DNA from: Candidatus Aenigmatarchaeota archaeon
GTDB lineage: Archaea > Aenigmatarchaeota > Aenigmatarchaeia > QMZP01
Assembly: GCA_038999435.1 (NCBI GenBank)
Contig: JAVZYR010000001.1
Span: forward strand, 12,708 to 76,707
Direction: 5' to 3'
DNA: 64,000 nt
Shown: one piece after another, positions 1-50,247 of the stretch
Layout: the number at the start of each line of letters is the position of its first letter
Position numbering within the stretch: position 1 is the stretch's first letter
Notes under the pieces: generated by a model
The model's database searches: none
Seen by the model: the letters and a program-made list of their open reading frames with translations, nothing else
What the model was told of the DNA's origin: nothing
Program-made: the position numbers and the translations under genes

Positions 1-859
1 GCTGGCATGGGAAACCAGCTGCCCTTACGCATGAAATTGCGCCAGGAGAGATTGATAATGAAACACCTGATGGTGCGTCAGATAATGTAATCTTAAATTT
101 CGCTTCATTGTGTTTTGCAGGTGGAATCACTACAGCACTGAAACTGCTTGGTTCTGACTTACATATCCCTGTTGATTTTTGACCACCTTTGACATCACAA
201 TATTGCCCCTCTGAGCAAGGACAATCGCAGCAACAATTATTAACACTTTCGCCAAGTTCTGTTTGGCATTGCCCATCTCCACATATCCAGGAAGATATGC
301 TGATGTCTGAAAATCCAGCCGAGATATTATAAATGGTCTCATTTATTGCATAATCTGGTATGCTGAGGTTAAATGCAATTTTATTTGATGTCAATGTGTA
401 TTGGCCCTCACCACATCCAGCAAGCGCAGGTATTTCAATTGTGCAATTTATCTTGTTATCCCAAACTGCGCATTTTGATGTATCAATGTTGCGTGTCAGG
501 TTGCCAAGCGTGTAGGAAGCAGAACTGATGTATGCACCTGTTGGCATATTAACAATCTTTACTGTAACATTCGCTTCATGTCTATTGTTACAGCCAATAA
601 AAGATGTTGGTGTGGTTTGAATATGCTGAAGGCTTATGTCACTGAGTTGTTTGCATGTTTGTGTTCCTGTGTCGCAGTACCATCCAGTAGGACATGGATT
701 ATTAGGATCGCATGACTCAAATTGCGCTCTTGCGCTTGGTATGATTTGTGCTGGTTTCCACTCAGCCATTAGTGCAGATGATACCCACGTCCAGCTAAAG
801 ATAAGCCATGCTACCAAAATCGCGCCAATTTCAATTACAAGGAGCCTTTTGTTCAACAT
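1..859 (-). CDS. Partial (C-terminus beyond window start) Cys-rich secreted/membrane-anchored protein. N-terminus MLNKRLLVIEIGAILVAWLIFSWTWVSSALMAEW...; ORF is open to position 1.
   Basis: Manual minus-strand translation from ATG at 859..857 shows no stop down to position 2. It was missed by the ORF track because it has no in-window stop. Hydrophobic signal/TM follows the start; many Cys (CDPNNPC, CCCDCPC). Its start overlaps the stop of the upstream gene (ATGTTGA). The listed 130..342 ORF is an out-of-frame artifact inside it. Confidence 0.55.
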   Translation of the reverse strand, partial: MLNKRLLVIEIGAILVAWLIFSWTWVSSALMAEWKPAQIIPSARAQFESCDPNNPCPTGWYCDTGTQTCKQLSDISLQHIQTTPTSFIGCNNRHEANVTVKIVNMPTGAYISSASYTLGNLTRNIDTSKCAVWDNKINCTIEIPALAGCGEGQYTLTSNKIAFNLSIPDYAINETIYNISAGFSDISISSWICGDGQCQTELGESVNNCCCDCPCSEGQYCDVKGGQKSTGICKSEPSSFSAVVIPPAKHNEAKFKITLSDAPSGVSLSISPGAISCVRAAGFPCQ

Positions 860-3165
860 ATCTGAAGGCTGCAAAGCGCTATTTGTTTATAGTCAAAGCA
901 TGCCATTATTTTTAAACATTCTGGTGGAAGGTTATAGGTTGGTTTCCATGGTAAATTTGGAAATATAGCAGCTTTGTAGGACTCTTGTATGCAGAATGGT
1001 ATAAGGGTAGACTTACCATATACACAATCATTAAGTATGGCAAAATTATTTATTTCATCATAGCAACCCATATAAACCATGCATGTTGCATTACACGGAT
1101 CACATGGATTTGTGGTACTTCCTGGGATACAACCAGGTGGAGTGTTTTTGTAAAAACCTCCACATGCCCTGAATTCATTCTGACATTGCTTAAGTATGCC
1201 ATTTTGTGCTGAATTTTCACTGCATCTGTCTGATACCTGAAGAACAGCAATTGATTTGGTCCCACATCCTAAAAGCCAATCTATCGCCTCTCCTATGGCT
1301 ACCCCTCTACATTTATCATGGTCGCTTTCAGAATCGCATCCTCCCATATCCTCACAGCAATCATCTTTTGCAGAATCCCTCACATCATCAGCCATGTCCA
1401 TAATATTTTTCATATCCGGCACAGTTACTATAAGATTTGCATCATATGGTGGTATGTTAATTTGCGTGCTTGATGTCTCAATGGGTGTTGCTCTGTGCTG
1501 ATATTTACCCATTGTCTTACCTTCGTATGTGAATATTTCAGCTCCAGCCGTCTGTAGTCCTTCTTTACTCATTACCCTGGCATAGACATTATATAGCCCA
1601 GGCGGTATATAGTCAACTGTCACGCTATGTTTTATAATCAATGCATCACCAGTCTGTTTGATGCAATCCAGTTCGCTTAAATTGTTGCAATCGATAATCT
1701 TTGATAAATTGTAATTCATAACATAATATTGTCTGCTGCCATCAGTTGAATTGAAAATCAGCGTGACTGCCTCAACATCCACAGGTGCATATGCATCATG
1801 GCATGAACCTGTGTCCTTATAGAAGCTGAATTTTATTTTTGATGGCTTGAGCAGCACTACAGTCAGACCTACAAGCTCAGAGACAGACTTTCTCTCTCTG
1901 TATATTGAATATCCAGGGGCTGATACGGTCAGATTTCCAATCGAAGCTGTGACAGCACCTTTTACATTTCCATTTGCATCTGTTGTGAATGCACAGCCCT
2001 CATAATATACAGTTGCGCCGGGTATGGGTGCCCCTGATTGGTCAATCACAGTTATATTAATCGGATTTGTTGGGTTTTCGCAAGATATGGCAGGTGTAAG
2101 TGTTGCAGCACAATCATTGGCAGGCCTCATATTATCTACAGCAACATTTATTGCAAATTTGAAAAAATTGTCAGCCAGCTCATCATACACAGAGACAATA
2201 GCAGGATATCTAAATGAATATCGAATGTTATACCATTGAATGCAGATTTGCACAGTATAAGAAAATACACCAGAGAGCCTTAATATCGGCTCTGCAGGCC
2301 CAATAAATATCATCCCGCTCTGTGTGGCATAAAGAAGTGGCAGCCCAAGCTGTGGATTAAGGTCTGTATATTTCTTGCCATCAAGGTCAGGGATGTTCAA
2401 CACAGGGCTATGCTTTGTGTTTACAGGTTTCCACCATTGAATATTGCTCAACGTGTACTCAAAAACACCCCTCATTAGGGCACTTGTCTCCTCAGGCATA
2501 AGAAGTATTGTCTGCCCACATTCTGTCAGCCATCCAAATGTTGGTAGCTGAGAATAATACAGATTTTTGATTGTTGCCCATTCAAGTGCTCTTGTGTTTG
2601 CCTGAAAATTTGTGAAGTCCTTGGCAAATTTATATATATAGCCAAACCTTGTCGGAACCGTGACAACGTAAGGCTGTTCAAGCTCTTCTCCTCCCACTTT
2701 TGTAGGAAGCCATAGTGCAAAATTTATCTTGTCTTCCTCAATCTTTATTTCAGCCTTTACATCTGTCTTATCAAATGAAACCTGCTTGCCATCGATTGTC
2801 ATGGTATTATTTAGAGATGCAAGAACATCGCCCATTGTTTTATTTTTCAGATTGTTTTCTATCTCTTGCAGGGTAGGGTAGGTTTTGTTTCCACAGGCAG
2901 ACCAATATGCAACAGGCGTGTCTATGTAAAGCGGGCTGTCTGCTGGTGGGCTGAACAAACCTCCCTGTGCTTCTATTATCTCAAGATTTTCAGTGAGCCT
3001 CTCCTTTATGATACTTAATATCTGGCTGTGTACATGCTTTAGATGCTCTGGAATTGCTGGAGAGACAGGGAACGCAGGTGCAGCAAGAAATAGATAATAT
3101 ATTGCAATTATAGCAATGATAACAATACCAATAATAGCAATAAATTCCAGCTGCCCTTTAGCCAT
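853..3165 (-). CDS. Large (770 aa) N-terminally membrane-anchored extracellular protein with a Cys-rich C-terminal region; function unknown.
   Basis: Long ORF. N-terminal TM (FIAIIGIVIIAIIAIYYLFLAAP). C-terminal third rich in Cys pairs (CCEDMGGCD, CDPCNATC). Confidence 0.6.
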   Translation of the reverse strand: MAKGQLEFIAIIGIVIIAIIAIYYLFLAAPAFPVSPAIPEHLKHVHSQILSIIKERLTENLEIIEAQGGLFSPPADSPLYIDTPVAYWSACGNKTYPTLQEIENNLKNKTMGDVLASLNNTMTIDGKQVSFDKTDVKAEIKIEEDKINFALWLPTKVGGEELEQPYVVTVPTRFGYIYKFAKDFTNFQANTRALEWATIKNLYYSQLPTFGWLTECGQTILLMPEETSALMRGVFEYTLSNIQWWKPVNTKHSPVLNIPDLDGKKYTDLNPQLGLPLLYATQSGMIFIGPAEPILRLSGVFSYTVQICIQWYNIRYSFRYPAIVSVYDELADNFFKFAINVAVDNMRPANDCAATLTPAISCENPTNPINITVIDQSGAPIPGATVYYEGCAFTTDANGNVKGAVTASIGNLTVSAPGYSIYRERKSVSELVGLTVVLLKPSKIKFSFYKDTGSCHDAYAPVDVEAVTLIFNSTDGSRQYYVMNYNLSKIIDCNNLSELDCIKQTGDALIIKHSVTVDYIPPGLYNVYARVMSKEGLQTAGAEIFTYEGKTMGKYQHRATPIETSSTQINIPPYDANLIVTVPDMKNIMDMADDVRDSAKDDCCEDMGGCDSESDHDKCRGVAIGEAIDWLLGCGTKSIAVLQVSDRCSENSAQNGILKQCQNEFRACGGFYKNTPPGCIPGSTTNPCDPCNATCMVYMGCYDEINNFAILNDCVYGKSTLIPFCIQESYKAAIFPNLPWKPTYNLPPECLKIMACFDYKQIALCSLQIC

Positions 3166-8162: not shown

Positions 8163-9455
8163 ATGGCAGTTGAGAAGATTGTGATAGGCCGAGATAGAGA
8201 AGATATAAAGAGATATGGCAGTGAGGGTACTGCATACATCGGCAAGCATATTGTTGGAAAGGGCGAGGAGGCACACCTTACAAACCCAATACACATGGAT
8301 TTGATAAGACCACATGTTGTGCTTGTTGCTGGAAAAAGGGGAACTGGAAAAAGCTACAGCGCAGGCGTGATTGCAGAGGAGATTGCAATGCTTCCAAAAG
8401 AAATTAGAGAGAATCTATCTGTGATAATGATTGACACAATGGGCATATACTGGTCAATGAAGATGGGAAATGAGAAGGACAGAGAACTTCTGAAGAATTG
8501 GGGACTCAAGCCACAGGGCCTGCCGATAAAGCTTTATGTGCCAAAAGGGTATGTGAAGGACTATGAGGATGTTGGAGTAAAGGTTGATGGCGCATTCACA
8601 ATTGCTTGCTCTGAGCTCACAGCATTAGATTGGATTATGACATTTGGCTTTTCTATGCTTGACCCACACGGCATAGCAATAGAGCGGGCAATAAAGGCTG
8701 TCACAGACAGATTTGGCACAGAATATTCTATATCAGACATCATAAAGGCCATAGAAGATGATAAAAGGACAGACAAATCAATAAAGGATGCACTTGTGAA
8801 TAGATTTCTTGCTGCAGAGGATTGGGGGCTTTTCGAGATTCATGGTACGACTGTTAGGGAGATGATCGAGCCAGGTGTTATCTCAGTTATTGATGTCAGC
8901 CATTATATGCGTGTCTCGGCTGGATGGTCTGTTCGCTCAATGATAGTTGGATTGTTATCAAGGAAGATTTTCCAAGAGCGGCTGATGGCAAGAAAGGCAG
9001 AAGAATTTGAGATTATGGCAGGGGAAAGGAGAAAAACAATACCAATGGTATGGCTTATGATGGACGAGGCGCATCAGTTTGTTGGCACAGAGCCAACTGC
9101 AGCAACAGAACCATTACTTACGCTTATTAAAGAAGGCAGAGAGCCGGGTATATCTGTGTTGATGATAACGCAAAGGCCTGGAAAACTACATGAGGATGCA
9201 CTGGCACAGGCAGACCTTATAATTGCACACAGGTTGACAGCTGAGGCAGACATCCGTGCGTTAAGGTCAATCATGCAGACATATGTTCTTGAAGATATAC
9301 AGGACCTGATGAATGCATTACCACGCCTCAAGGGCTCAGCGCTCATACTCGATGATAATTCAGAGAGGATATATACAGTTCAGGTCAGACCGCGTTTTTC
9401 TTGGCATGCAGGCGGTTCACCTGCTGCAATAAAGCCAAAAGGGATATTTGGATAG
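8163..9455 (+). CDS. HerA/FtsK-superfamily P-loop ATPase (DUF87-like).
   Basis: Walker A VAGKRGTGKSYS, Walker B/DEAH-like LMMDEAHQF, and the HerA-type ITQRP motif. Confidence 0.7.
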   Translation: MAVEKIVIGRDREDIKRYGSEGTAYIGKHIVGKGEEAHLTNPIHMDLIRPHVVLVAGKRGTGKSYSAGVIAEEIAMLPKEIRENLSVIMIDTMGIYWSMKMGNEKDRELLKNWGLKPQGLPIKLYVPKGYVKDYEDVGVKVDGAFTIACSELTALDWIMTFGFSMLDPHGIAIERAIKAVTDRFGTEYSISDIIKAIEDDKRTDKSIKDALVNRFLAAEDWGLFEIHGTTVREMIEPGVISVIDVSHYMRVSAGWSVRSMIVGLLSRKIFQERLMARKAEEFEIMAGERRKTIPMVWLMMDEAHQFVGTEPTAATEPLLTLIKEGREPGISVLMITQRPGKLHEDALAQADLIIAHRLTAEADIRALRSIMQTYVLEDIQDLMNALPRLKGSALILDDNSERIYTVQVRPRFSWHAGGSPAAIKPKGIFG

Positions 9456-9485: not shown

Positions 9486-11999
9486 ATGAATATTCCTAAA
9501 CTATTATTATTAATTATAACAATATCTGCTATTCTAATCATTTTTATCAGATTCACAGGTCTATTTATTCCTCCTGCTGGCCCTCCTACTGTCTACACAG
9601 TCTGCTCTTCTGGTTGTGATTATGACAGCCTGACAGCATGCCTTTTTACTATAAATAATACACAGAATATTTGCAACATAACGGGCCCTGGCTTTTGGTC
9701 AATAAATGATAGCTATTATTTTATTAGCAATGCCGGTGAAATAGTTGAAATAGCATCAGATGATGTTATTTTTGATTGTAATAATTCAATTTTAAGAACT
9801 ACCCTCATCAATTCTTTTGTAATACGAATGAAAAAAGTTGATAACACAACAATAAGAAATTGCATTTTTAATACAATTGATAACACAATAGATTTACAGG
9901 GAAATAACATAAAAATATACAACAATTCATTTTATGGCGATTGGTATTCTTTGCGGGCTTATGACTGGGTTTACAATATATCAATTTATGATAACAATAT
10001 ATCAACAGGATTTGATCCCTGGTTTAGGGTAGTTAATTGTACCATAGAAAATAATAACATATCTAACGGTTTAAGAGGAGATTTTAACGATAGTATAATA
10101 AGAAATAATAACATTAGTTGCGTGTATATAGTTATCAATGGTAAAAACACAATTTTTGAAAATCATCAGCAAATCTGCGAATCAGGAGACGCTTTACAAT
10201 ATTTTGGTGGTATAAACATAACAATAAGAAATAATAGTTTTATAAACAAAACAACAGGAATAATTATAAATTCAGCTAATGAAACGAATATATATAATAA
10301 TACAATCGTAACATATATTCCAACTGATTATGGAGGGATAAATTCATCAGGCACAAATTTTAATGTTACAATAATCAATAACACCATCACAGGCCCATAT
10401 AAAACTTCAATTGGAATTTTAGGTAGTGGCAATAAAATCATAAATAATACAATAAGCAATACAACACAAGGGATTTATATTAATGGAAGTAATCATAACA
10501 TATCTAGAAATGTAATAAAAAATGCAAGCCAAGAATGTTTATACACAGATTCTTTCACCGAGTCTAGCATAATCTCAAACAACACATTCGAGGATTGCGG
10601 TGCTGTTTCTGGTCCATACGAAGCGTATCTAAGCTCATACTCTCCACTGCAGTATAATGGCAACAACTACACTATTGTTTTTTATGCAAATTCAGATATA
10701 ATCGACACTGTGCAAGTTTCAGAAGATAACACAAATGTTTCTGACATAGTCACAGGTGAAAATAACTTCAGCCTATGGTTAGGTACATGTGAGGATGGCT
10801 CAAGATGGACAGTTTATGTCGAAGAGCCAGAGAGTATGTCGTGCTCAGATGTATTTAATTTAGGTTGTAATGGCATATGTGACTTTGAACAGGATGGCTA
10901 CTGGATTGCAAATGGCTATGGTCAAAACTACACATTAAATCAATCACCGCAGGTCTCTGTCATTCCCGGCTACACAGACCCTGCATGGCTGAGATACAGC
11001 TCATGGTATGTCCAGGATTACTATCCAATTGTTCTTTATGGCTCCTCTGGAAACAACATAACAAAGAATTGGATAAAGGATGTGAACAAAAAGAACAACT
11101 ATTCTATCTACTCAGATACAAATGCACAGGACAGGATATGGCTAAACATGCTTCTCTCAGGTGGCATAAACATCACAGGCACTGAGCCAATCTTATGCGT
11201 GAATGGTGAAGGAAACTTTTATGGCGAGGGCAGTTTAGGCGTGCCTGAGAACGATTGTGGTCCTGCAAGCATCACCGCACCAACAGCAGGTGCATACACA
11301 GGTAGCATAACAATTCAATGGACTGCCCAATCCTCACCAGAGCCTGTAACATATGATGTCTATGCAAAGAATTTAGCAACAGGCGAGATGACAAAACTTA
11401 CAGAAACAACAAGCCTTTCATATTTATGGAACCTATCAGGATACTTAGGAAATTATAAAGCAATCATTATTCCATGGATCTCTGGCTCAAGGATTAATGC
11501 AACATGGGCAGAGTCAGGCATACTTCAGCTTGGTCAGGGTACAGGTGGAGGCAATGTCACTGTTACAATCCTTACATCCATCACAATATCCCTACCTGTA
11601 GATACAGTCAACTTTGGCACAATGCAACTTGGCCAATCTGACAACACAACAGATAACAGCCCACCACCATTCATCCTTCAAAATGATGGTTCTGTGCCCG
11701 TCAACATTACAATAAATGCAACTCAGCTTTGGTACAGCAGCCTTGGTTCAGGCACAAGCAGTTATTATCAATTCAAAACAGAATGTAATGAGTCATCATG
11801 TGTGCCAGACCCAGATAATGACCTCGTTACATCCTGGACAAACATACCAATAAATGAACAAGCAATCCTTGCCTGTTCAAATCTTCGCTTCATAGACAAC
11901 CAAGATACGGTTAAGATTCACATAAAGGTTACAGTTCCGGTTGATGAGCCAGCAGGTTCAAAGAACAGCACAGTCACATTCACAGCAAGCCAAGCATAA
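9486..11999 (+). CDS. Giant Asn-rich cell-surface protein with an N-terminal signal/anchor, right-handed parallel beta-helix repeats, and a C-terminal about 145 aa module shared with downstream small proteins.
   Basis: N-terminal hydrophobic segment; many IxNNxI/NNTI PbH1-like repeats; very dense N-x-S/T sequons. C-terminal region from about 11550 is homologous to the 12251 ORF. Confidence 0.7.
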   Translation: MNIPKLLLLIITISAILIIFIRFTGLFIPPAGPPTVYTVCSSGCDYDSLTACLFTINNTQNICNITGPGFWSINDSYYFISNAGEIVEIASDDVIFDCNNSILRTTLINSFVIRMKKVDNTTIRNCIFNTIDNTIDLQGNNIKIYNNSFYGDWYSLRAYDWVYNISIYDNNISTGFDPWFRVVNCTIENNNISNGLRGDFNDSIIRNNNISCVYIVINGKNTIFENHQQICESGDALQYFGGINITIRNNSFINKTTGIIINSANETNIYNNTIVTYIPTDYGGINSSGTNFNVTIINNTITGPYKTSIGILGSGNKIINNTISNTTQGIYINGSNHNISRNVIKNASQECLYTDSFTESSIISNNTFEDCGAVSGPYEAYLSSYSPLQYNGNNYTIVFYANSDIIDTVQVSEDNTNVSDIVTGENNFSLWLGTCEDGSRWTVYVEEPESMSCSDVFNLGCNGICDFEQDGYWIANGYGQNYTLNQSPQVSVIPGYTDPAWLRYSSWYVQDYYPIVLYGSSGNNITKNWIKDVNKKNNYSIYSDTNAQDRIWLNMLLSGGINITGTEPILCVNGEGNFYGEGSLGVPENDCGPASITAPTAGAYTGSITIQWTAQSSPEPVTYDVYAKNLATGEMTKLTETTSLSYLWNLSGYLGNYKAIIIPWISGSRINATWAESGILQLGQGTGGGNVTVTILTSITISLPVDTVNFGTMQLGQSDNTTDNSPPPFILQNDGSVPVNITINATQLWYSSLGSGTSSYYQFKTECNESSCVPDPDNDLVTSWTNIPINEQAILACSNLRFIDNQDTVKIHIKVTVPVDEPAGSKNSTVTFTASQA

Positions 12000-12044
12000 A
12001 AGCTTATAAGGTTTTTAATACCAATAATTAAAATAGGAGGTAAA

Positions 12045-12239
12045 ATGGCATCCAACAAATTGCTGGCTGCATTGATTTTAGTGCTACTTGTAGCATCGCT
12101 TGTTGGTATGTATATTTTGATTGCACCGCTAATTCCAGTCGCGCCAGCCATAGCAACAGAGACAGGAGTTGTTAGCCTTTATGTTGCACCACAGCCATAC
12201 TCTACAGGAGGTATGGTTTCTGTGGTCGTAATAGGATAA
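12045..12239 (+). CDS. Small secreted or pilin-like protein (64 aa); a truncated paralog of the N-terminal part of the next gene.
   Basis: Strong SD (TAGGAGGTAAAATG); N-terminus MASNKLLAALILVLLVASLV parallels MVSNNTLAALILVAIVISLV of the 12251 ORF. Confidence 0.5.
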   Translation: MASNKLLAALILVLLVASLVGMYILIAPLIPVAPAIATETGVVSLYVAPQPYSTGGMVSVVVIG

Positions 12240-12250
12240 GGAGGTAAAAG

Positions 12251-12832
12251 ATGGTAAGCAATAATACACTTGCAGCCCTTATCTTGGTAGCAATAGTGAT
12301 ATCCCTGGTAAGCATAGCAACAACCCTAAACATTGCCTCAAGGATACCCATAACCCTAACAGGAGGCATATCAGGCACAACACAAGTATCAGTCGCAACA
12401 GCAATCACAATCACCCTGCCAGTAAGTACAGTAAACTTTGGCTCAATGTCCCTTAATGCAGAGGATGATACAACGGACAACAGCCCAGGCCCGTTCATTG
12501 TTCAAAATGACGGTTCTGTGTGTGTCAATGTGACAGTTAATGCAACACAACTTTGGTCAGGAACAGGCGCAACAGGTACATCGACATACTACAGATTTAA
12601 ATCAGAATGCAATGAGGCAAATTGCGTTAACAACGAAACAGAAGATCTTGTGAGCTCATGGACAAACATGCCAATTGCATCTGCTGCAACAAAGCTTGTC
12701 AACAGACTAAGATACACTGATTCACAGGATACTGTGAAGGCGCACATTTATCTAAAGGTCCCTGCAGATGAGCCAGCAGGTCCAAAGAGCAGTACTGTGA
12801 CATTTACATCAGAAGACGCAGGCGGCTGCTAA
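12251..12832 (+). CDS. Secreted protein (193 aa) made of a signal/anchor plus the beta-rich module shared with the C-terminus of the 9486 protein.
   Basis: SD AAGGAGGTAAAAGATG; roughly 60% identity by eye to 9486 residues about 690-837 (ITITLPVSTVNFG...DNSPGPFIVQNDGSV...NATQLW...YYRFKSECNE...VTFT). Confidence 0.65.
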   Translation: MVSNNTLAALILVAIVISLVSIATTLNIASRIPITLTGGISGTTQVSVATAITITLPVSTVNFGSMSLNAEDDTTDNSPGPFIVQNDGSVCVNVTVNATQLWSGTGATGTSTYYRFKSECNEANCVNNETEDLVSSWTNMPIASAATKLVNRLRYTDSQDTVKAHIYLKVPADEPAGPKSSTVTFTSEDAGGC

Positions 12833-12889
12833 AATAAAAAACTTTTCATTTTTTCTTTTTTTTAAATATTTTCACAGATATCTATAAAG

Positions 12890-14059
12890 ATGAAAAGGAT
12901 TTTCTCAATCATCTTGTTATTGACACTGGTTTTAATTTTACCATCAGCATTAGCCATTGGCATGTCACCTGCAAGGATAGAGATAGATTTTCAGCCAGGT
13001 GCAAACCTAACTTACGATTTCTGGGTTCTAAATAATCTTAATGAAACGCGTTCTATAGAGCTATATCCAACAGGCGAGCTTGCTGACAGGATAACCATTT
13101 ATGGTGATAAACAATTCGAACTTGAAGGACAAAAGGTTAGGCAATTTTCATTTTCCATACTACTACCTGAAGAACTTGAGCCAGGGCTTCACAAGTCAGG
13201 GATAGGTGCAATAGAAGGCCTGCCAAGTGGCAGGGAAGGCGGGACACAACTTGCTGCACGCGCAGCAGTTATAATGCAGGTATGGATAAGGGTACCATAT
13301 CCAGGAAAGTATGCAGAGATTAGTATAGAGGCAAAAGATGTTGAACTTGGTCAGCCAACACCATTCACAATCCATGTCAAAAACCTTGGCTCTGAAGACA
13401 TCACAGCAGAGGATGAGATAGAAATATGGAATGGTGATAAGAAAGTTGCAGAGCTGAGCGCAGGTTCTGTTTCAGTAGCTGCAAAAGGCACAGAAAATCT
13501 TTATGCAAGCTGGAAAGCAGACAGTGCAGGTGTATACAAAGCAATAGCAAATGTGAAATATGATGGCAAAAATGCATCAGCTTCAACATTTTTCAGGGTT
13601 GGGGCTCTTGACATAGAAATATTAGACCTCTCAAAAGAGATTGTGCAGGCCGGAGAGATAGCAAAGTTTAAGGTTAAACTAAAAAGCAAATGGAATGCAG
13701 AGATTAGAAACATTTATGCCGATGTTGAAATACTGAAAGATGGAAATGTTTTAAAAACAGGGCGCTCAGCGCCATTCATGTTGGGTGTATGGGAAGAAAG
13801 GGAAATCCCCATTTATGTTGAAACACAGGGCCTTGAGCTTGGTGTCTATGATGCAAAAGTTAAAGTATATTTTGATAATAGGACAAAGGAAAAAGATTTC
13901 TCTTCTAGATTGGAGATTGTTGCATACAAACCTTTTGAGATATCCCTACCTTATATCATCATTTTGATATTCTTCATATTCGTACTACTCTTGATAACCT
14001 TATTATTATTAAAAAGGAGGAAGGAATCGCATGAAAAAAGGTCAAGAAGAAAAAAATAA
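12890..14059 (+). CDS. Surface protein with a signal peptide, a beta-sandwich (CARDB-like) ectodomain, and a C-terminal TM plus polybasic tail.
   Basis: N-terminal signal MKRIFSIILLLTLVLILPSALA; C-terminal LPYIIILIFFIFVLLLITLLLLKRRKESHEKRSRRKK. Confidence 0.6.
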   Translation: MKRIFSIILLLTLVLILPSALAIGMSPARIEIDFQPGANLTYDFWVLNNLNETRSIELYPTGELADRITIYGDKQFELEGQKVRQFSFSILLPEELEPGLHKSGIGAIEGLPSGREGGTQLAARAAVIMQVWIRVPYPGKYAEISIEAKDVELGQPTPFTIHVKNLGSEDITAEDEIEIWNGDKKVAELSAGSVSVAAKGTENLYASWKADSAGVYKAIANVKYDGKNASASTFFRVGALDIEILDLSKEIVQAGEIAKFKVKLKSKWNAEIRNIYADVEILKDGNVLKTGRSAPFMLGVWEEREIPIYVETQGLELGVYDAKVKVYFDNRTKEKDFSSRLEIVAYKPFEISLPYIIILIFFIFVLLLITLLLLKRRKESHEKRSRRKK

Positions 14060-14480
14060 AATCAAGCTAAAACTAACAAAAAAACTGTGCATTTTGGTTA
14101 TAGTTTTAGTTGCATTTGCATCTGTACTTGGCACTATTTTATGGTCATCACCTGAAATAAAAAACATTGATATCTATCTTACAGTTGGCAATTACACAGG
14201 CATAAACGTAAACTCATCCGCACTTTGGTTTGGTACAATCCCGCAGAATGCTGTTGCACAGCGTAATATCATAATAAATAATGGTGATGCATGGCCAAGG
14301 CGAGTCTGGATAAAGGCGCAAGGAGAAATTGCAAAATGGATATCTGTTACGGATAATGGCTTTTTGCTAAAGCCAAATGAAGGAATGCAGGTAGGTGTTG
14401 TTGTGAGCATACCACCTGATGCTGCCCAAAAAAATTATACATCTCAACTCGAGATTGTGCTTATCAGGACAATATTTTAA
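14031..14480 (+). CDS. Small membrane-anchored or secreted protein distantly related to the shared module.
   Basis: N-terminal TM; LWFGTIPQNA...IIINNGDAWPRRVWIKAQGEIAKW parallels VNFGTMQLG...FILQNDGSVPVNITINATQLW. Confidence 0.45.
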   Translation: MKKGQEEKNKIKLKLTKKLCILVIVLVAFASVLGTILWSSPEIKNIDIYLTVGNYTGINVNSSALWFGTIPQNAVAQRNIIINNGDAWPRRVWIKAQGEIAKWISVTDNGFLLKPNEGMQVGVVVSIPPDAAQKNYTSQLEIVLIRTIF

Positions 14481-43818: not shown

Positions 43819-45876
43819 TCATATTATCCCAAGCCCAGCTAATGCCTCTTTAATAAGGCTGCCGAACATAGAACTTGTTGCAATAGCAATGAGCATGTAG
43901 AATATGAGGGCGATTAAAATCATCTGGCCAGCTGTCGCTTTTAGAGAGACAGGATCTTCTCCCTTATCAATCTTTATCAGGAAGAGTGCAAGCACAAAAA
44001 CAATTTCAAGCAGATATATACCTACTATCAGTTGAAACATAGATGCTGTGATGGATGGTGCACCCATGCTGATAAGACTAAAATTTAATCCACCTATCGG
44101 TCCACCAGCCCCTGCAACACTTTGTAGATAATCTCCTAATTTGATTAAAACCTGAACTATCACATCTGTCATTGCAACAATGAGCCCTGATATCATTGGC
44201 GTAAGAAAGTATGCCTGAAATTTCATCGAACTTGTTGTATCAGAGAGGATCTCCCTTATATATTCTTGCGTCTCCTTTATTGATTTGAGATAATTTGCAA
44301 TTCTAAGCATACTTTCAGATGCATATCTCACACCTTTCTTTGCAGTATCTATAACCGTGTACATGATATTCTCGATGAGTCTTGATGGATAGTATTTTAT
44401 TGCACCCCATTGTTTGTCAAACAACGCTTGCTCAAATGTCATGCCAAGTGTTCTCATATTCTTTAATGTATGTTTGAAAAGGCCTGCTATTTCCATATCT
44501 TTCAGCTCACCTATTGCATATTCCATTGCAACCTCTGTCGGAATTCCACCAGCAACTCTATTTCCGAGCTGGAAGAGTGCAAGTTCAAATTCTGATTCAA
44601 TCTTTTGGATGGAATTCTGTATTTTTATCATCTGATGTGATGAGAGGAAGAAATAGGCACCAACAGCAAAACCAACAGCCATGACAATCAAACCGGACAT
44701 GGTCATCGAAAGTATAGGGTTTGGATCATATACTGCTTTTGGTTGTTGTGTTTCAGGGTCAAATGGAGGGATGAGAAAATCAGGGTTTGTTATAAAATAT
44801 ATAAATCCAGGGGTAGCAAGGATGATAAAGACGCAAAGGGATATTGGCCATATCGGCATATCCTTTTTCCCAATCCTAAGATGTCCAGGTTTTGGTAGTT
44901 CGGGATGTCGAGAGATGTCAATCTGGGAAAAAGTTGCAGGCCTTTTGTTAAGTGTATTTGTAATAAACCATATTATCACAATAGGAAGGATAATATTATA
45001 ACCCAAAACAAAATGAACAGGTGATACAAGGTTTGCAAGAAAAACAGCAGCTAATGGCGCCATGATTGTGCCGAGTACTGGGAGTATAATCCCCATCATG
45101 TGTATGACCATAACAGGCATCTTTAGATCCTGTGCATAATGTTTCATTCTCGTCTTTGTCCCTTCGAGCACAACATTTAGTGCTTGGTCTAGAACCTCTT
45201 TTGCCCTTTCAGGTGGTTGGAATTGAGAATCCTTAATGAGTCGTAAAGATTCCGCAAATTCTTCATTTTCGAATTTCCATTTTTTGATATATGCATCGAT
45301 TGCCTCATTTGCAGATGGGTATATCCGCATTTCTATATCCCAGAGGAGTTTTCTCATATCCCATGCAAGTTCGCCTGATACATTAAGTGCTGCAAATTTC
45401 AATGCCCTTTCTAGATTTGGTGAAACCCTCATCGACACGACCATATAAAGGATTGCCAGCACAATCTGCGCCGATGCCTTTATTCGATAGTTTTTAACGA
45501 GATTTAATGGATATTTCAAGAAATAATACGAAACAAGAAAACCCATTGCCATAATGAGCATCCCGCCTATTATAGGGACACCGAATGCAACTATTGCAAT
45601 CACACCAAGGACCACAAATGAAATTATCGTCAAAATCATCAATGCCATAACAGATTCTGGTGTAACTCTTAGTCCAGTAAAAGCAACAGCAGATTCTATA
45701 TTTCTTTTAACATCATCACTTGGCTTGACTTTGATAAGTGATGCTGCAATGTCATTCAATCTTTCATACCAGTTTTTCTTTCTTTCAGCAACCTCTTTGA
45801 AAATTTTGTATTCTCTTGTGACAAGTTCAGGTTCCTTTTTAATCTCTGGCTCTTTTTTCTTTCCAAATAAAACCAT
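43819..45876 (-). CDS. Polytopic membrane protein with two T2SS-F-like cytoplasmic domains (TadC/FlaJ/PilC-like pilus platform protein).
   Basis: Two repeats of [cytoplasmic helical domain + TM cluster]; GE.sG.L-like motifs (SGELAWDMRKLL; GMTFEQALF...YP). Confidence 0.55.
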   Translation of the reverse strand: MVLFGKKKEPEIKKEPELVTREYKIFKEVAERKKNWYERLNDIAASLIKVKPSDDVKRNIESAVAFTGLRVTPESVMALMILTIISFVVLGVIAIVAFGVPIIGGMLIMAMGFLVSYYFLKYPLNLVKNYRIKASAQIVLAILYMVVSMRVSPNLERALKFAALNVSGELAWDMRKLLWDIEMRIYPSANEAIDAYIKKWKFENEEFAESLRLIKDSQFQPPERAKEVLDQALNVVLEGTKTRMKHYAQDLKMPVMVIHMMGIILPVLGTIMAPLAAVFLANLVSPVHFVLGYNIILPIVIIWFITNTLNKRPATFSQIDISRHPELPKPGHLRIGKKDMPIWPISLCVFIILATPGFIYFITNPDFLIPPFDPETQQPKAVYDPNPILSMTMSGLIVMAVGFAVGAYFFLSSHQMIKIQNSIQKIESEFELALFQLGNRVAGGIPTEVAMEYAIGELKDMEIAGLFKHTLKNMRTLGMTFEQALFDKQWGAIKYYPSRLIENIMYTVIDTAKKGVRYASESMLRIANYLKSIKETQEYIREILSDTTSSMKFQAYFLTPMISGLIVAMTDVIVQVLIKLGDYLQSVAGAGGPIGGLNFSLISMGAPSITASMFQLIVGIYLLEIVFVLALFLIKIDKGEDPVSLKATAGQMILIALIFYMLIAIATSSMFGSLIKEALAGLGII

Positions 45877-46510: not shown

Positions 46511-47251
46511 ATGATTGAATTCGTAATAGCATTTTTAGCCTATCTCGTTGCAGGTCTTTTGGATTTGAAAACAACAGAATTTCCAAATTGGATACCATAT
46601 TCTCTCATTGCATCCATACTTGCTATAAACATCATCCGTTCATTTTCAATCCCTGATATATCAATTTTCATTGGCTCACTTACATTCGGTATGATTTTTC
46701 TTGCAGCAGGTTTATTGCTTTATGCAGCAAGGGCATGGGGTGATGGTGATGCTTGGCTTTTTGGTTCGTTGGGGTTCATTTTTTATTTTTCTCCTCTAAA
46801 AATCCTCATTGTTTTCTCGATAACTGCACTAATATACACAATTTTGTACTCTTTCTATATTGGCCTTCGCAATGATAAAGTCTTGAAGGCATTTAAAAAA
46901 GAAATCAGAACAAAGAGAAATGTTTTATGCATCATTTTTTCGGTATTTACACTTTTTTCTATTTTTACATACAATCTTTTAAAACAGCCAATTATTATTT
47001 TCTTACCTCTTTTCATCCTTTTTATCTTATTTTATATACCTTTTGCATTACATGTTGAAAGAATATGTTTTAGAAAAAGAATACATGTTTCAGAGCTAAC
47101 CATGAATCATATTCCCATAAAAAGTCTGTTAAGAAATATGAAACCTGAGGAACTCGAGAGATTGAAAAAAAGGAATGGGTACATATGGGTTAAAGAAGGT
47201 ATCAGATTTAGTCCGGTCTTTTTTTTGACACTACTCTTTACATTGGTTTAA
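46511..47251 (+). CDS. Archaeal class III (prepilin/preflagellin) signal peptidase, A24 family (PibD/FlaK-like).
   Basis: Polytopic; first catalytic Asp context LLDLKTTEFPN (compare YxDLKxRE); second Asp motif AWGDGDAWLFG (compare GGxDxKL). Confidence 0.6.
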   Translation: MIEFVIAFLAYLVAGLLDLKTTEFPNWIPYSLIASILAINIIRSFSIPDISIFIGSLTFGMIFLAAGLLLYAARAWGDGDAWLFGSLGFIFYFSPLKILIVFSITALIYTILYSFYIGLRNDKVLKAFKKEIRTKRNVLCIIFSVFTLFSIFTYNLLKQPIIIFLPLFILFILFYIPFALHVERICFRKRIHVSELTMNHIPIKSLLRNMKPEELERLKKRNGYIWVKEGIRFSPVFFLTLLFTLV

Positions 47252-48382: not shown

Positions 48383-49522
48383 TCATTTTTTTAGTTTATA
48401 TTTCCTTTTTCTGAAAAACCAATATCCAAGCCCAGCTAATAAAAACATCCCTATGATTACAAACAACCCTTGGTTTTCCTTCTTCTCAAAATTCAACACA
48501 ATATCCTTTGATTCATGAACATCCTCAAGCTCAGGTCCTATGTATGTCAGATTAAGATGACCACTTCCTTGTAAAATAAGTGGGTAAGAAAAGGTCACTT
48601 TTTTATTTGGTTTAAGAGAGCTTGTGTAATCTATGCCTATGACTTTTCCATCAATTATTAGTTCTGCTGTTATTGCTTTTGCTTCAGCAGTACCTTTATT
48701 TGCAACTTCTATATCTAATTTCTGCCTTTCGAGGTTTGGTTTTATGTCAATTATCATAAGTGACACAGAACCCTTAATTGGAATACCAATCGAAAAGGAA
48801 TTTGTCCAACCCTGCCCTGATTCATCAACATAGAACACAGTTAGGTTTGACAAATATGTTTTGTATTCTGCTTCAGGGCTCACAGAAAGATTTATTTCAG
48901 CTATTTTGCTTTGACCTGGTTTTAGCTCATCCAAATATTTTGAGACCGAAAATATCGGCGTGATTTCAGACACTGATATAAAATTTGTCCTTATCTGTCT
49001 TGCGTCTCCAGTCCCAACATTGCTTAAATTTATTTTCATTGTTATTTGCCCACCAGGTTCTGCAACCCCTTCCATATCCACATCCTGAATAACAAGTTCT
49101 GGTTTACCTTGCACAGCAACAAAGACCTTATACAAAACCCATATCTTTGGATCATTTCTATACACTTTAAATCCTATCTCGTAATCTCCGCTTACAGCTT
49201 TTGAATCAACTATCAATTTCCAACTTGCCTTTACAGAGCTTCTTGGAGAAATCTTGGAAAATGTCTTTACTTTCTCCTCTCCAGGTAAAACTTTGAATGG
49301 GAGATTTTCTATTATTTCAATGCTATAATTTTCTGCTGCTTCAAAACCATTATTTTGTACCTCAATCTCTATGCTAAGGTTTTGACCAGGCTGAACAGGG
49401 TATGGTAGTTGTTTTGTTAAGATTATATTTAGGGATGATGCTTCAAAATACTCTGCTTTAGCAACTGTAAACATAGCAATGAAAATAAGCATCCCAATGC
49501 AAATATAACCATTTATTTTCAT
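48383..49522 (-). CDS. Cell-surface protein with signal peptide, CARDB-like beta domains, and a C-terminal TM plus polybasic tail.
   Basis: Signal MKINGYICIGMLIFIAMFTVAKA; C-terminal LFVIIGMFLLAGLGYWFFRKRKYKLKK; upstream of and co-oriented with the ABC transporter. Confidence 0.6.
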   Translation of the reverse strand: MKINGYICIGMLIFIAMFTVAKAEYFEASSLNIILTKQLPYPVQPGQNLSIEIEVQNNGFEAAENYSIEIIENLPFKVLPGEEKVKTFSKISPRSSVKASWKLIVDSKAVSGDYEIGFKVYRNDPKIWVLYKVFVAVQGKPELVIQDVDMEGVAEPGGQITMKINLSNVGTGDARQIRTNFISVSEITPIFSVSKYLDELKPGQSKIAEINLSVSPEAEYKTYLSNLTVFYVDESGQGWTNSFSIGIPIKGSVSLMIIDIKPNLERQKLDIEVANKGTAEAKAITAELIIDGKVIGIDYTSSLKPNKKVTFSYPLILQGSGHLNLTYIGPELEDVHESKDIVLNFEKKENQGLFVIIGMFLLAGLGYWFFRKRKYKLKK

Positions 49523-50247
49523 TTTATCACCTTATCGAGCTTTACAATCTTGTGGTCCTTCTTTACTATTTCTTTTATTATCGTTCCATCCTTTAAATAT
49601 ACAACCCTATTTGCATATCTTGTGATTTCAGGGTCATGTGTGACGACTACAAAAGTATAGCCCTTTTCTATGTTTAGCCATTCAAGCAAGGTCAAGATCT
49701 GTTTTCCTGTTTTTGTATCAAGATTTCCTGTCGGCTCATCAGCAAGTATGATTTTTGGCTGGTTCGCAAGGGCCCGGGCAATAGCAACCCTTTGCTGCTC
49801 ACCACCTGAGAGAAGACCTGACATGTGATTCATTCTATGACCAAGTCCGACCATGTCAAGCAGCTTTTTAGCTTCTTCGATTGCCATCTTTTTGCTTTTT
49901 CCTGCAATCCTTAAAGCAAGCTCAACATTTTCAACAGGCGTAAATGTTCTAATGAGATTGTATTCCTGAAAAACGAAGCCTAATTTTTCTTTTCTTATTT
50001 TTGCCAGTTGATCATCATCAAGCTTTGATACATCTTTGCCATCTATCCACACACAGCCTTCATCCGGTTTTAGAAGACAACCAATGATATCAAGCAGTGT
50101 TGTTTTTCCTGAACCAGAAGGCCCGACTATCGTTATAAAGTCACCTCTCATCACAGTAAGATTTATACCTTTTAATACCCTAACCTCATTTGGCATGCCT
50201 TTATTGTATGTTTTTTTCACACCCTTTAGCTCTATTATTTTATTCAT
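49519..50247 (-). CDS. ABC transporter ATP-binding protein (MacB/LolD-like).
   Basis: Walker A GPSGSGKTTLL, signature LSGGEQQRVAIARAL, Walker B ILADEPTGNLD. Confidence 0.9.
   Translation of the reverse strand: MNKIIELKGVKKTYNKGMPNEVRVLKGINLTVMRGDFITIVGPSGSGKTTLLDIIGCLLKPDEGCVWIDGKDVSKLDDDQLAKIRKEKLGFVFQEYNLIRTFTPVENVELALRIAGKSKKMAIEEAKKLLDMVGLGHRMNHMSGLLSGGEQQRVAIARALANQPKIILADEPTGNLDTKTGKQILTLLEWLNIEKGYTFVVVTHDPEITRYANRVVYLKDGTIIKEIVKKDHKIVKLDKVIK

What the first reader, a model, noticed from the sequence alone, without database searches (positions are those of the whole stretch)
9486..14480. Cell-surface locus: giant beta-helix protein whose C-terminal module is duplicated as tandem small secreted proteins
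The 837-aa Asn-rich beta-helix protein ends in an about 145-aa module (about 11550-11996). That module recurs at roughly 60% identity as the body of the 193-aa protein at 12251, and more distantly in the 14031 protein. Between them, 12045 is a 64-aa truncated paralog of the 12251 N-terminus. The two paralogs have near-identical SD/start contexts (GGAGGTAAAA) and MxSNxxLAALILV N-termini that could be class III (pilin-like) signal peptides. The next gene is a CARDB-like surface protein with a C-terminal TM plus polybasic tail. This resembles a surface filament or adhesin system whose tip protein and minor subunits share one domain. A class III signal peptidase and a TadC-like platform are encoded 30 kb away.
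Basis: seen in the sequence. Interest (0 to 1): 0.6.

Follow-up and report, generated by a model that had tools for sequence, protein, structure and literature searches.

The report
Archaeal WxL-like adhesin display locus
This five-gene locus of a tiny symbiotic (DPANN) archaeon looks like the archaeal counterpart of the "WxL" surface-protein clusters of lactic acid bacteria: a sugar-coated beta-helix adhesin and a small protein share an unannotated docking domain and sit next to a membrane-anchored partner protein, which may be how these archaea attach their adhesins to the cell surface.

Summary
The core observation holds. The last 152 aa of the 837-aa beta-helix protein are 60% identical (E 2e-59) to the body of the 193-aa protein. 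Two details fail. The 14031 protein does not carry this module. The 64-aa ORF is a conserved gene family, not a decayed fragment.

The pilin reading is not supported. Only 3 of 82 module proteins have a [KR][GA] site near the hydrophobic segment. The module also works at the extreme C-terminus of large proteins that have no adjacent helix.

The module is an unannotated domain (no Pfam or NCBIfam hit). It has 2,264 clusters at 50% identity in the representative library, and named members and loci are DPANN archaea. It occurs either alone after an N-terminal TM segment or as the last domain of proteins up to 5,817 aa.

The 389-aa neighbour is a homologue of WxLIP (DUF916-DUF3324-TM) of Firmicutes WxL clusters (hhalign 97%, E 1e-10; Foldseek hits to PDB 9i1y and 9i25). 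The 149-aa protein is a TM-anchored copy of the WxLIP first domain. Synteny holds across 68 loci.

Best reading: a WxL-cluster-like surface display complex with a new docking module, probably held together by beta-strand complementation. It is a new variant of a known kind.

The parts
9486..11999 (+). W_837: large surface adhesin-like protein. It has an N-terminal hydrophobic signal/anchor (aa 1-31), a right-handed beta-helix, and the C-terminal docking module. It carries 42 N-x-S/T sequons and 20 Cys.
   Evidence: Pfam Beta_helix aa 244-384 E 2.9e-9 and NosD E 1.8e-5. Sequon and TM scan. Homologue L1_832 has the same architecture.
11541..11996 (+). C-terminal docking module of W_837 (aa 686-837). 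It ends at the last residue of the protein.
   Evidence: 60% identity to W_193, E 2e-59. Module HMM E 3e-67. In 35/35 large homologues the module ends within 14 aa of the C-terminus.
12036..12045 (+). GGAGGTAAAA ribosome-binding-like motif before the W_64 start codon.
   Evidence: One of only two copies in the window. Sequence read.
12045..12239 (+). W_64: small conserved protein. It has an N-terminal TM segment with the 'SNxxLAALI' motif, followed by a short extracellular beta-hairpin (GVVSLYV...GMVSVVV). It is a homologue of the first ~50 aa of the module proteins.
   Evidence: Family of about 40 ORFs of 63-85 aa (E to 3e-24). 34/70 stand-alone module genes have one within 300 bp upstream. 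Alignment of small/module pairs.
12240..12249 (+). GGAGGTAAAA ribosome-binding-like motif before the W_193 start codon.
12251..12832 (+). W_193: module-only protein. It has an N-terminal TM/signal segment (aa 1-30), a linker, a conserved 'TG-x3-GTTQVxV' strand, and a beta-sandwich (aa ~54-190).
   Evidence: AF2 model pLDDT 86: helix 4-29, low-confidence 31-50, sandwich above 90. 25 close homologues, no Pfam. Profile search finds 2,264 clusters.
12890..14059 (+). W_389: WxLIP homologue. It has a Sec-type signal peptide, three Ig-like beta-sandwich domains (aa 23-135, 142-238, 242-344), a C-terminal TM helix (353-378) and a polybasic tail. A flexible loop spans aa 110-126 in domain 1.
   Evidence: AF2 pLDDT 94. 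Foldseek to PDB 9i1y and 9i25 (WxLIP) E 4.6e-10 and 1e-9. hhalign against the WxLIP family 97.0%, E 1.1e-10, 208 columns. 17/54 homologues hit Pfam WxLIP_HBD below threshold.
14031..14480 (+). W_149: N-terminal TM anchor plus a single Ig domain homologous to domain 1 of W_389 and to WxLIP PGBD (DUF916). It overlaps the W_389 stop by 29 nt.
   Evidence: hhalign p149 family against the W_389 family 96.3%, and against WxLIP 90.1% (E 1.6e-6). 28/37 p389 genes that follow a stand-alone module are followed by a p149 gene. No module similarity.

Best explanation
The locus encodes a cell-surface display complex of a DPANN (Aenigmatarchaeota-like) archaeon, built on the same plan as the WxL/Csc clusters of Lactobacillales and Bacillales.

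Shown:
- A large, heavily sequon-decorated beta-helix protein (W_837) and a small protein (W_193) carry the same ~150-aa beta-sandwich docking module.
- The next gene (W_389) is a homologue of WxLIP (DUF916-DUF3324-TM), the membrane-anchored protein that binds WxL domains.
- W_149 is a TM-anchored extra copy of the first WxLIP domain.
- W_64 is a TM helix carrying only a short beta-hairpin.
- This gene set is syntenic across DPANN.

Inferred:
- All five proteins are exported by Sec.
- W_389, W_149, W_64 and probably W_193 stay in the membrane through their TM segments.
- The module has an open beta-sandwich edge, which is why it resembles donor-strand pilins.
- That edge is completed by a strand from a partner: the flexible loop of W_389 domain 1 (as in the WxLIP-WxL complex), and/or the W_64 hairpin, and/or the N-terminal strand of W_193.
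- This non-covalent strand complementation tethers the adhesin to the cell.
- Because DPANN archaea have no peptidoglycan, TM anchors replace the peptidoglycan binding of WxL.
- In relatives the payload in front of the module varies (beta-helix, LamG lectin, Gly-rich, Ig repeats, up to 5.8 kaa). This fits a role in host or substrate attachment.
For: Shared module:
- 60% identity, E 2e-59.
- Only two copies in the window.

Module family:
- 2,264 clusters at E<=1e-3 and 1,351 at E<=1e-10.
- It is either stand-alone (170-235 aa, with an N-terminal hydrophobic segment in 82 of 92 checked) or the last domain of proteins of 300-5,817 aa.
- Payload domains include LamG, Gly_rich_2 and Big_7.
- Source names and GTDB titles are Aenigmat-, Nano-, Woese-, Pace-, Undin- and Micr-archaeota and Nanobdellota.

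W_389 as a WxLIP homologue:
- hhalign against 24 verified WxLIP sequences gives 97.0%, E 1.1e-10, 208 columns. Controls score 0.2-3.8%.
- Foldseek E 4.6e-10 to 9i1y and 1e-9 to 9i25 'WxLIP bound to long WxL'.
- Pfam WxLIP_HBD hits in 17/54 homologues.
- Same order: signal peptide, Ig domains, C-terminal TM.

W_149:
- Homologous to the PGBD-like domain: 90.1% and 96.3%.

Synteny over 68 loci:
- 57/61 p389 genes have a module gene within 1 kb upstream.
- 26/33 large module genes are followed by p389.
- 34/70 stand-alone modules are preceded by the small gene.
- p149 follows only the p389 that follows a stand-alone module (28/37 against 0/23).

Strand-complementation hints:
- The top PDB matches of the module model are mostly donor-strand-complemented subunits: CsuA/B, FimA/I/G, PapE/A, TLP-1a, cannulae and AbpA, interleaved with GH123-type glycosidases (16 of the top 50).
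- The AF2 model leaves the conserved strand at aa 42-53 at low confidence.
- W_64 is homologous to exactly the TM-plus-first-strand part of the module proteins.
- The published AF2 model has a WxLIP hairpin completing the WxL sandwich (PMC10599100).

Extracellular location and operon structure:
- 42 sequons in W_837 against 1 in the neighbouring ATPase.
- Gene gaps of 45, 11, 57 and -29 nt.
Against: - The module itself is not detectably homologous to the WxL domain. There is no PF13731 hit, hhalign gives 1.3%, there is no dual W-x-L motif, and no WxL chain is among the top 50 Foldseek matches.
- Foldseek matches of the module to pilins are weak (E 1e-3 to 5e-2, TM 0.3-0.5).
- W_389 scores higher against generic multi-Ig ciliary proteins than against WxLIP.
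- Its Pfam WxLIP hits are below the gathering score.
- No complex could be modelled here, so the contact between W_389/W_149/W_64 and the module rests on synteny and analogy.
- Many large proteins retain the first strand too (HMM start 3-19). A simple 'donor strand only in stand-alone subunits' scheme therefore does not hold.
- In this window one W_389 serves two module proteins, whereas many relatives have one p389 per module gene.
Confidence: 0.55

Rival explanations
1. A donor-strand-exchange fibre, of the chaperone-usher / TasA / thread / cannula type. W_193 polymerises head-to-tail through its N-terminal strand. W_837 is the tip adhesin, with a C-terminal pilin domain like FimH or PapG. 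W_64 (TM plus strand only) is the membrane-proximal terminator or anchor. W_389 and W_149 act as membrane-bound chaperones that cap the groove before assembly.
For: - Donor-strand filament subunits from five systems dominate the top PDB structural matches of the W_193 model.
- Stand-alone proteins have a conserved 'TG-x3-GTxxVxV' strand that AF2 does not dock onto its own domain.
- W_64 is homologous to exactly the TM-plus-strand part.
- P0081 has a clean Sec signal peptide whose predicted mature N-terminus would be that strand.
- The architecture (adhesin with a C-terminal pilin-like domain) matches two-domain adhesins of chaperone-usher pili (established knowledge).
- Loci with 2-4 tandem module genes exist, e.g. 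L005.
Against: - Foldseek scores are marginal.
- No usher or PapD-type chaperone was found in Pfam or NCBIfam scans.
- The partner protein is homologous to WxLIP, which forms discrete complexes, not fibres.
- The TM segment of module proteins is conserved in sequence. This suggests it is retained rather than cleaved.
- The near 1:1 pairing of module genes with p389 genes in many loci fits docking better than homopolymerisation.
Confidence: 0.22
2. The module is a C-terminal sorting or envelope-attachment domain, functionally like SLH, the T9SS CTD or S-layer anchors. It binds a non-protein envelope component (S-layer glycan or lipid) or is recognised by an export machine. The neighbouring Ig/TM proteins would be independent surface proteins or processing factors, not direct partners.
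For: - The module lies strictly at the extreme C-terminus of hundreds of unrelated large secreted proteins.
- In Firmicutes the analogous WxL domain is reported to bind a cell-wall polymer (PMC9772566).
- There is no direct evidence here for a protein-protein contact.
Against: - This reading does not explain the stand-alone module proteins with their own TM segment.
- It does not explain the very tight synteny with WxLIP homologues (57/61).
- It does not explain the strand-only W_64 family.
- WxLIP is solved in complex with a WxL domain (PDB 9i25).
Confidence: 0.15
3. One reading: a type IV pilus-like filament. W_193 and W_64 would be pilins with class III signal peptides processed by the A24 peptidase encoded 32 kb away.
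For: - N-terminal hydrophobic helix followed by a beta-sandwich.
- The hydrophobic segment is conserved in sequence and shared by W_64 and W_193.
- A Peptidase_A24 gene is present in the window.
Against: - [KR][GA] lies next to the hydrophobic segment in only 3/82 family members. The residue before the conserved 'ISN' is mostly E, K or V.
- The module functions without any adjacent helix at the C-terminus of large proteins.
- No PilB/FlaI or T2SSF gene was found in or near the 68 loci examined by the cassette HMMs, nor among the window ORFs scanned.
- No type IV pilin is among the top 50 fold matches.
Confidence: 0.04

Closest known systems
WxL / Csc cell-surface protein clusters of Lactobacillales and Bacillales (small WxL, large WxL, WxLIP = DUF916-DUF3324-TM, often a small LPxTG protein). 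Sources: PMC1534035, PMC9772566, PMC10599100; PDB 9i1y and 9i25.
   Same: - One ~150-190-aa beta-rich domain is found alone in a small secreted protein and as the strictly C-terminal domain of large multi-domain adhesins, including beta-helix adhesins.
- The domain genes are clustered with a signal-peptide / Ig-domains / C-terminal-TM protein.
- Here that protein is a true homologue of WxLIP (hhalign 97%; Foldseek).
- An extra small anchored protein sits in the cluster.
- A partner strand is predicted to complete the docking domain.
   Different: - The docking module is not WxL: no dual W-x-L motif, no PF13731 hit, hhalign 1.3%.
- The host is an archaeon without peptidoglycan.
- The small module protein, W_64 and W_149 carry their own N-terminal TM segments, instead of relying on peptidoglycan binding or a sortase LPxTG anchor.
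- W_389 has three Ig domains rather than two.
- There is an additional TM-anchored single-PGBD-like protein (p149).
- Many loci carry one WxLIP-like gene per module gene.
Donor-strand-complemented filaments: chaperone-usher pili (Fim, Pap, Csu), TasA fibres, Sulfolobus threads (Saci_0406), Pyrobaculum AbpA bundling pili, Pyrodictium cannulae, TLP-1.
   Same: - These give the best structural matches of the module model.
- Stand-alone subunits have an N-terminal conserved amphipathic strand.
- The adhesin carries the subunit-like domain at its C-terminus, as in FimH and PapG.
- The subunits are exported independently of class III signals, as for threads (PMC9715654).
   Different: - No usher or PapD-like chaperone.
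- No sequence similarity.
- The hydrophobic N-terminus is conserved and may be retained.
- The partner protein is WxLIP-like.
- Polymerisation is not shown.
Archaeal type IV pilins and archaellins (class III signal peptides, PibD/FlaK/EppA).
   Same: - N-terminal hydrophobic helix followed by an Ig-like beta-sandwich.
- An A24 peptidase is encoded in the genome.
   Different: - No [KR][GA] cleavage motif.
- No assembly ATPase or platform in the locus.
- The module occurs without a helix at the C-terminus of large proteins.

Membership tests
WxL protein cluster (Csc) | A WxLIP protein: signal peptide, DUF916 (PGBD), DUF3324 (HBD), C-terminal TM. | tested here: met
   W_389 family against 24 Pfam-verified WxLIP sequences: hhalign 97.0%, E 1.1e-10, 208 columns spanning PGBD and HBD. 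Foldseek to 9i1y and 9i25 at E 4.6e-10 and 1e-9. Pfam hits are only below threshold. W_389 has an additional third Ig domain.
WxL protein cluster (Csc) | At least two proteins with a WxL domain (PF13731, two conserved W-x-L motifs). | tested here: not met
   No PF13731 hit for W_193, for W_837, for 64 family members scanned at E<=1 or for 10 large members scanned at E<=0.001. hhalign of the module against 40 small WxL proteins gives 1.3%. The conserved motifs are 'LW' and 'TVTFTA', not W-x-L.
WxL protein cluster (Csc) | The same docking domain is present alone in a small protein and as the C-terminal domain of a large adhesin in one gene cluster. | tested here: met
   The module ends within 14 aa of the C-terminus in 35/35 large proteins.
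WxL protein cluster (Csc) | The docking domain binds peptidoglycan. | not testable with these tools
   DPANN archaea are not known to make peptidoglycan (established knowledge). TM segments are present instead.
Type IV pilin / class III signal peptide | A short charged leader ending in [KR][GA], cleaved before the hydrophobic helix. | tested here: not met
   Found in 3/82 stand-alone family members. W_193 starts MVSNN, W_64 starts MASNK.
Type IV pilin / class III signal peptide | Genes clustered with, or dependent on, a PilB/FlaI ATPase and a PilC/FlaJ platform. | tested here: not met
   None was found among the locus genes. The A24 peptidase lies 32 kb away. The 684-aa ORF next to it has no T2SSF hit.
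Donor-strand-complemented pilins | An incomplete Ig-like fold resembling known donor-strand subunits. | tested here: inconclusive
   The top Foldseek PDB hits are mostly such subunits, but with E 1e-3 to 5e-2 and TM 0.3-0.5. Model coordinates could not be inspected.
Donor-strand-complemented pilins | The N-terminal strand of one subunit completes the fold of the next, giving a polymer. | not testable with these tools
   No multimer prediction was available. A conserved low-confidence strand exists at aa 42-53.
Donor-strand-complemented pilins | A periplasmic PapD-like chaperone and an usher (for chaperone-usher pili). | tested here: not met
   There are no such Pfam or NCBIfam hits. One of 54 p389 homologues has a chance-level chaperone hit, E 0.006.

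The most novel reading that the evidence does not exclude
The module is the subunit domain of a previously unseen, DPANN-wide class of strand-exchange surface assembly. Stand-alone module proteins would chain together through their N-terminal strand. A membrane-anchored 'strand-only' mini-protein (the W_64 family) would plug the base. WxLIP-like proteins would chaperone or dock the subunits. Giant, variable adhesins would be mounted through the same C-terminal domain. This would be the attachment organelle by which these ultra-small archaea hold on to their hosts. It would also tie archaeal fibres, Gram-positive WxL complexes and chaperone-usher pili to one assembly principle.
Probability: 0.2. 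Interest if true: 0.85.

Novelty: new variant of a known kind. Interest (0 to 1): 0.6.

Why it matters
- DPANN archaea are mostly uncultured episymbionts, and how they attach to hosts is an open question. Their genomes are full of giant, unannotated surface proteins.
- This analysis gives those proteins a common handle. It is a ~150-aa C-terminal module with no Pfam or NCBIfam hit, with more than 2,000 clusters at 50% identity.
- The analysis also defines a small conserved cassette around the module: a WxLIP homologue, a TM-anchored PGBD-like protein and a strand-only mini-protein.
- That makes surface display in DPANN directly testable by pull-downs, multimer modelling and cryo-ET of enrichments.
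- It provides a search key for cataloguing candidate adhesins.
- It extends WxLIP, described so far almost only from Lactobacillales and Bacillales, to archaea. There it works with a different docking domain and without peptidoglycan. This bears on what WxLIP really does.

Tried and rejected
- BLASTP and a module HMM against the 14031 protein found no module similarity.
- Sequence searches of the module against the PDB, as a single sequence and as a profile, returned only chance hits to antibodies and a prenyltransferase.
- Pfam and NCBIfam scans of the module family found nothing. The best result was DUF4402, E 0.016, in 3/64 members.
- Sequence and profile searches of the W_389 family, or of its domain 3, against PDB sequences did not reach 9i1y. 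The link needed profile-profile comparison with WxLIP sequences fished from metagenomes.
- The HerA-like ATPase directly upstream was tested as a possible assembly motor. It neighbours the cassette only here and in L014, another Aenigmatarchaeota contig, so it is not counted as part of the system.
- Two-way clustering of p389 paralogues by identity did not separate the 'after large' and 'after small' types.
- A first iterative HMM run for the small and p149 families drifted into the module and p389 families and was redone with length limits.
- The sigma-70 promoter and terminator scan was uninformative for an archaeon.
- Literature searches for DPANN plus WxL and for DPANN giant adhesins found no prior description.

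Full report
**Context.** The window is archaeal. It encodes topoisomerase VI A and B, MCM, an Lhr helicase and EF-1alpha. The closest homologues of the locus proteins come from Candidatus Aenigmatarchaeota MAGs, at 92-99% identity. Five genes lie head to tail on the + strand with gaps of 45, 11, 57 and -29 nt:
- W_837 (9486-11999)
- W_64 (12045-12239)
- W_193 (12251-12832)
- W_389 (12890-14059)
- W_149 (14031-14480)

**Checking the observation.**
- The central claim is correct. W_837 aa 686-837 and W_193 aa 37-190 share 92/154 identities, E 2e-59.
- A profile of the module finds exactly these two copies in a six-frame translation of the window.
- The GGAGGTAAAA motif occurs only twice in 64 kb, immediately before the W_64 and W_193 starts.
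- W_837 has a right-handed beta-helix, 12% Asn and 42 N-x-S/T sequons. The adjacent cytoplasmic ATPase has one.
- The claim that the 14031 protein carries the module is wrong. BLASTP gives E 0.077 and 1.1, and the module HMM gives no hit at E<=10.
- W_64 resembles W_193 only over the N-terminal hydrophobic segment by BLASTP. However, it is not a decayed fragment, as shown below.

**The module is a large, unannotated family.**
- The word-based search found only 25 close relatives, none with Pfam domains.
- A profile of the mature module (A2) was searched against 1.84 billion cluster representatives. It found 2,264 proteins at E<=1e-3 and 1,351 at E<=1e-10.
- Two architectures recur. One is a 170-235-aa protein, usually with an N-terminal hydrophobic segment (82 of 92 checked). 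The other has the module as the very last domain of proteins of 300 to 5,817 aa.
- In 35/35 large proteins in the fetched loci the module ends within 14 residues of the C-terminus.
- The payloads in front of it vary: beta-helix, LamG lectin-like, Gly_rich_2, Big_7, or nothing recognisable.
- Source names and a scan of GTDB species representatives place the family in Woese-, Aenigmat-, Nano-, Pace-, Undin- and Micr-archaeota, Norongarragalinales and Nanobdellota. A few records are labelled uncultured Methanosarcinales.
- Pfam and NCBIfam have no model for it.

**A conserved cassette.** Contigs carrying homologues show the same neighbours. I built HMMs for four families and scored all ORFs of 68 non-redundant loci.
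- 57 of 61 W_389-like genes have a module gene within 1 kb upstream.
- 26 of 33 large module genes are followed by a W_389-like gene within 1 kb.
- 34 of 70 stand-alone module genes are preceded within 300 bp by a member of the W_64 family.
- The W_149 family follows only those W_389-like genes that follow a stand-alone module (28/37 against 0/23).
- The W_64 family has about 40 ORFs of 63-85 aa. Each has the same '(E/K)(I/V)SNxxLAxL' hydrophobic segment as the module proteins, then one conserved amphipathic strand 'sG.V.L.V' and often a second one.
- The W_64-family HMM aligns to residues 2-49 of W_193, that is the TM segment plus the first strand.

**What the partners are.**
- AF2 gives a confident model of W_389 (pLDDT 94). 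It has three beta-sandwich domains, a C-terminal TM helix, and a lower-confidence loop at aa 110-126.
- Its Foldseek hits are led by generic multi-Ig ciliary proteins. The first hits of comparable size are PDB 9i1y 'WxLIP from Enterococcus faecium' and 9i25 'WxLIP bound to long WxL', at E 4.6e-10 and 1e-9.
- Seventeen of 54 homologues hit Pfam WxLIP_HBD (DUF3324) at E down to 2.4e-6, below the gathering score, mostly in the domain before the TM helix.
- To test homology properly I fished 29 Firmicutes-type WxL clusters out of metagenomes using the published PGBD motif NQIDKxxxYFDLK.
- I verified a sample of them with Pfam: WxLIP_PGBD and WxLIP_HBD at E 1e-40 to 1e-54, and five small WxL proteins at E 1e-63 to 1e-72. 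Of the two large proteins tested, one hit WxL at 1.4e-10 and the other had no hit.
- Profile-profile comparisons followed:
 - W_389 family against WxLIP: 97.0%, E 1.1e-10, 208 columns. W_389 domains 1-2 align to PGBD and HBD.
 - W_149 family against WxLIP: 90.1%, E 1.6e-6, over the PGBD part.
 - W_149 family against the W_389 family: 96.3%.
 - Controls (module against WxLIP, W_389 family against WxL): 0.2-3.8%.
- W_389 is therefore an archaeal WxLIP homologue. W_149 is a TM-anchored single PGBD-like domain.

**Is the module a WxL domain?** Not detectably.
- hhalign of the module against 40 small WxL proteins gives 1.3% (E 0.04).
- That alignment covers only the last 36 columns: module 'iTVP.DEpAG.KSSTVTFTA' against WxL 'V.L.VPg.t.K..Y.TtlTW.L'. 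This is suggestive in position but not significant.
- There is no PF13731 hit and no dual W-x-L motif.
- No WxL chain appears among the top 50 Foldseek matches of the W_193 model.
- Those top matches are mostly donor-strand-complemented filament subunits: CsuA/B, FimA/I/G/F, PapE/A, CupB6 and CsuE adhesin pilin domains, TLP-1a, Pyrodictium cannulae and AbpA. GH123-type glycosidases (16 of the top 50) are interleaved.
- The scores are weak (E 1e-3 to 5e-2, TM 0.3-0.5).
- In the W_193 model the conserved stretch TG-x3-GTTQVSV (aa 37-48) is left undocked at pLDDT about 50-65, while the sandwich is above 90.

**Comparison with the literature.**
- WxL clusters contain a small WxL protein (the domain only), a large WxL protein (C-terminal WxL behind adhesin domains, including beta-helical ones), a WxLIP, and often a small LPxTG protein (PMC9772566, PMC1534035).
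- AF2 predicts that a WxLIP hairpin becomes a strand that fills a gap in the WxL sandwich (PMC10599100). A WxLIP-WxL complex is now in the PDB (9i25).
- The DPANN locus reproduces this plan point for point with a homologous WxLIP. It differs in having another docking domain and TM anchors in place of peptidoglycan binding and sortase anchoring.
- Archaeal donor-strand fibres (threads, ABP, cannulae) are class-III-independent and Sec-exported (PMC9715654, PMC9245690, PMC12518558). They are the second-closest analogy.
- I found no paper linking DPANN to WxL or describing this module.

**Against the pilin reading.**
- Of 82 stand-alone module proteins with a detectable hydrophobic segment, only 3 have [KR][GA] next to it.
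- The residue before the conserved 'ISN' is usually E, K or V. In the Aenigmatarchaeota members the protein simply begins MVSNN.
- The module operates without a helix at the C-terminus of large proteins.
- The A24 peptidase at 46511-47251 is real. It lies among tRNA synthetase, HAD hydrolase and MCM genes, and its 684-aa neighbour has no T2SSF signature.

**Most likely mechanism.**
- Shown: shared module, WxLIP homology, PGBD-like W_149, strand-only W_64 family, synteny, extracellular hallmarks.
- Inferred: the proteins are Sec-exported.
- Inferred: W_389 (C-terminal TM), W_149, W_64 and probably W_193 (N-terminal TM) stay membrane-bound.
- Inferred: the module's open sandwich edge is completed by a partner strand. 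This would tether the glycosylated beta-helix adhesin, and in relatives giant lectin- or Ig-rich proteins, to the cell surface for host or substrate attachment.
- Candidate partner strands are the W_389 domain-1 loop by analogy with WxLIP, and/or the W_64 hairpin, and/or the W_193 N-terminal strand.
- I give this about 0.55. A true donor-strand fibre with tip adhesin gets about 0.22, a partner-independent envelope-anchoring or sorting domain about 0.15, and a type IV pilus about 0.04.

**Limits.**
- Model coordinates could not be inspected.
- Signal-peptide predictors could not be run.
- The WxLIP link rests on profile-profile and fold similarity, not on above-threshold Pfam hits.
- The physical contact between the module and its neighbours is inferred.

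**Verdict.** This is a real, conserved, previously unannotated DPANN surface system. It is best filed as a new variant of the WxL-cluster kind: homologous WxLIP, new docking module, membrane anchoring. It is not a type IV pilus.

Noticed in passing
window 8163-9455 (+): A HerA/FtsK-like P-loop ATPase (Pfam HerA_C and DUF87; weak NCBIfam hits to CedD and CedB) ends 30 nt before W_837. A 296-bit homologue also sits directly upstream of the cassette in another Aenigmatarchaeota contig (L014), but not in the other loci. Its link to the surface locus is unclear.
   Followed up: partly
window 46511-47251 (+) and 43819-45876 (-): A Peptidase_A24 (prepilin/preflagellin peptidase) gene is present (E 3.6e-8).
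   Followed up: partly
N-termini of the W_193 and W_64 families (window 12045-12130, 12251-12340; many loci): The hydrophobic segment is conserved in sequence ('(E/K)(I/V)SNxxLAxLxxxAIVxSxxG') and shared by the module proteins and the mini-proteins. It often has no positive charge before it. It is neither a classic Sec n-region nor a class III site. Its role (retained TM-TM contact, or an unknown processing signal) is unexplained.
   Followed up: partly
L099 (GCA_019428815.1, JAHYJW010000006.1): A contig labelled 'Patescibacteria group bacterium' carries a similar-looking cassette: large protein, p389-like, 72-aa and 205-aa pairs, p389-like, 161-aa. The neighbours are judged by gene size and order only; no family HMM was run on this contig. 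This is either mis-binning or the system also exists in CPR bacteria.
   Followed up: no
window 48383-51367 (-): A separate surface/transport set: a CARDB + NPCBM_assoc protein (378 aa) next to an ABC ATPase and a MacB/FtsX-type permease. It is unrelated to the module cassette.
   Followed up: no
window 853-3165 (-): Another large (769 aa) probable surface protein with a CarboxypepD_reg-like domain and no module. The module is therefore not the only way this organism equips surface proteins.
   Followed up: no
Loci L026, L032, L036, L048, L051, L053, L056, L061, L065, L068 (Woesearchaeota and relatives): The extended arrangement is [giant protein with C-terminal module][p389-like] ... [mini-protein][module][p389-like][p149]. 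Each module-bearing protein thus has its own WxLIP-like gene, whereas the window has a single W_389 for two module proteins.
   Followed up: yes
window 14031-14059: W_149 starts 29 nt before the W_389 stop codon, inside the region encoding the polybasic tail. This suggests translational coupling.
   Followed up: no
W_193 aa 118-125 and W_837 aa 766-773 (window ~12602-12625, ~11781-11804): A C-x6-C pair (CNEANCV / CNESSCV) sits in a variable loop of the module. It is present in the Aenigmatarchaeota members but replaced in many relatives, and may be a lineage-specific disulfide.
   Followed up: no
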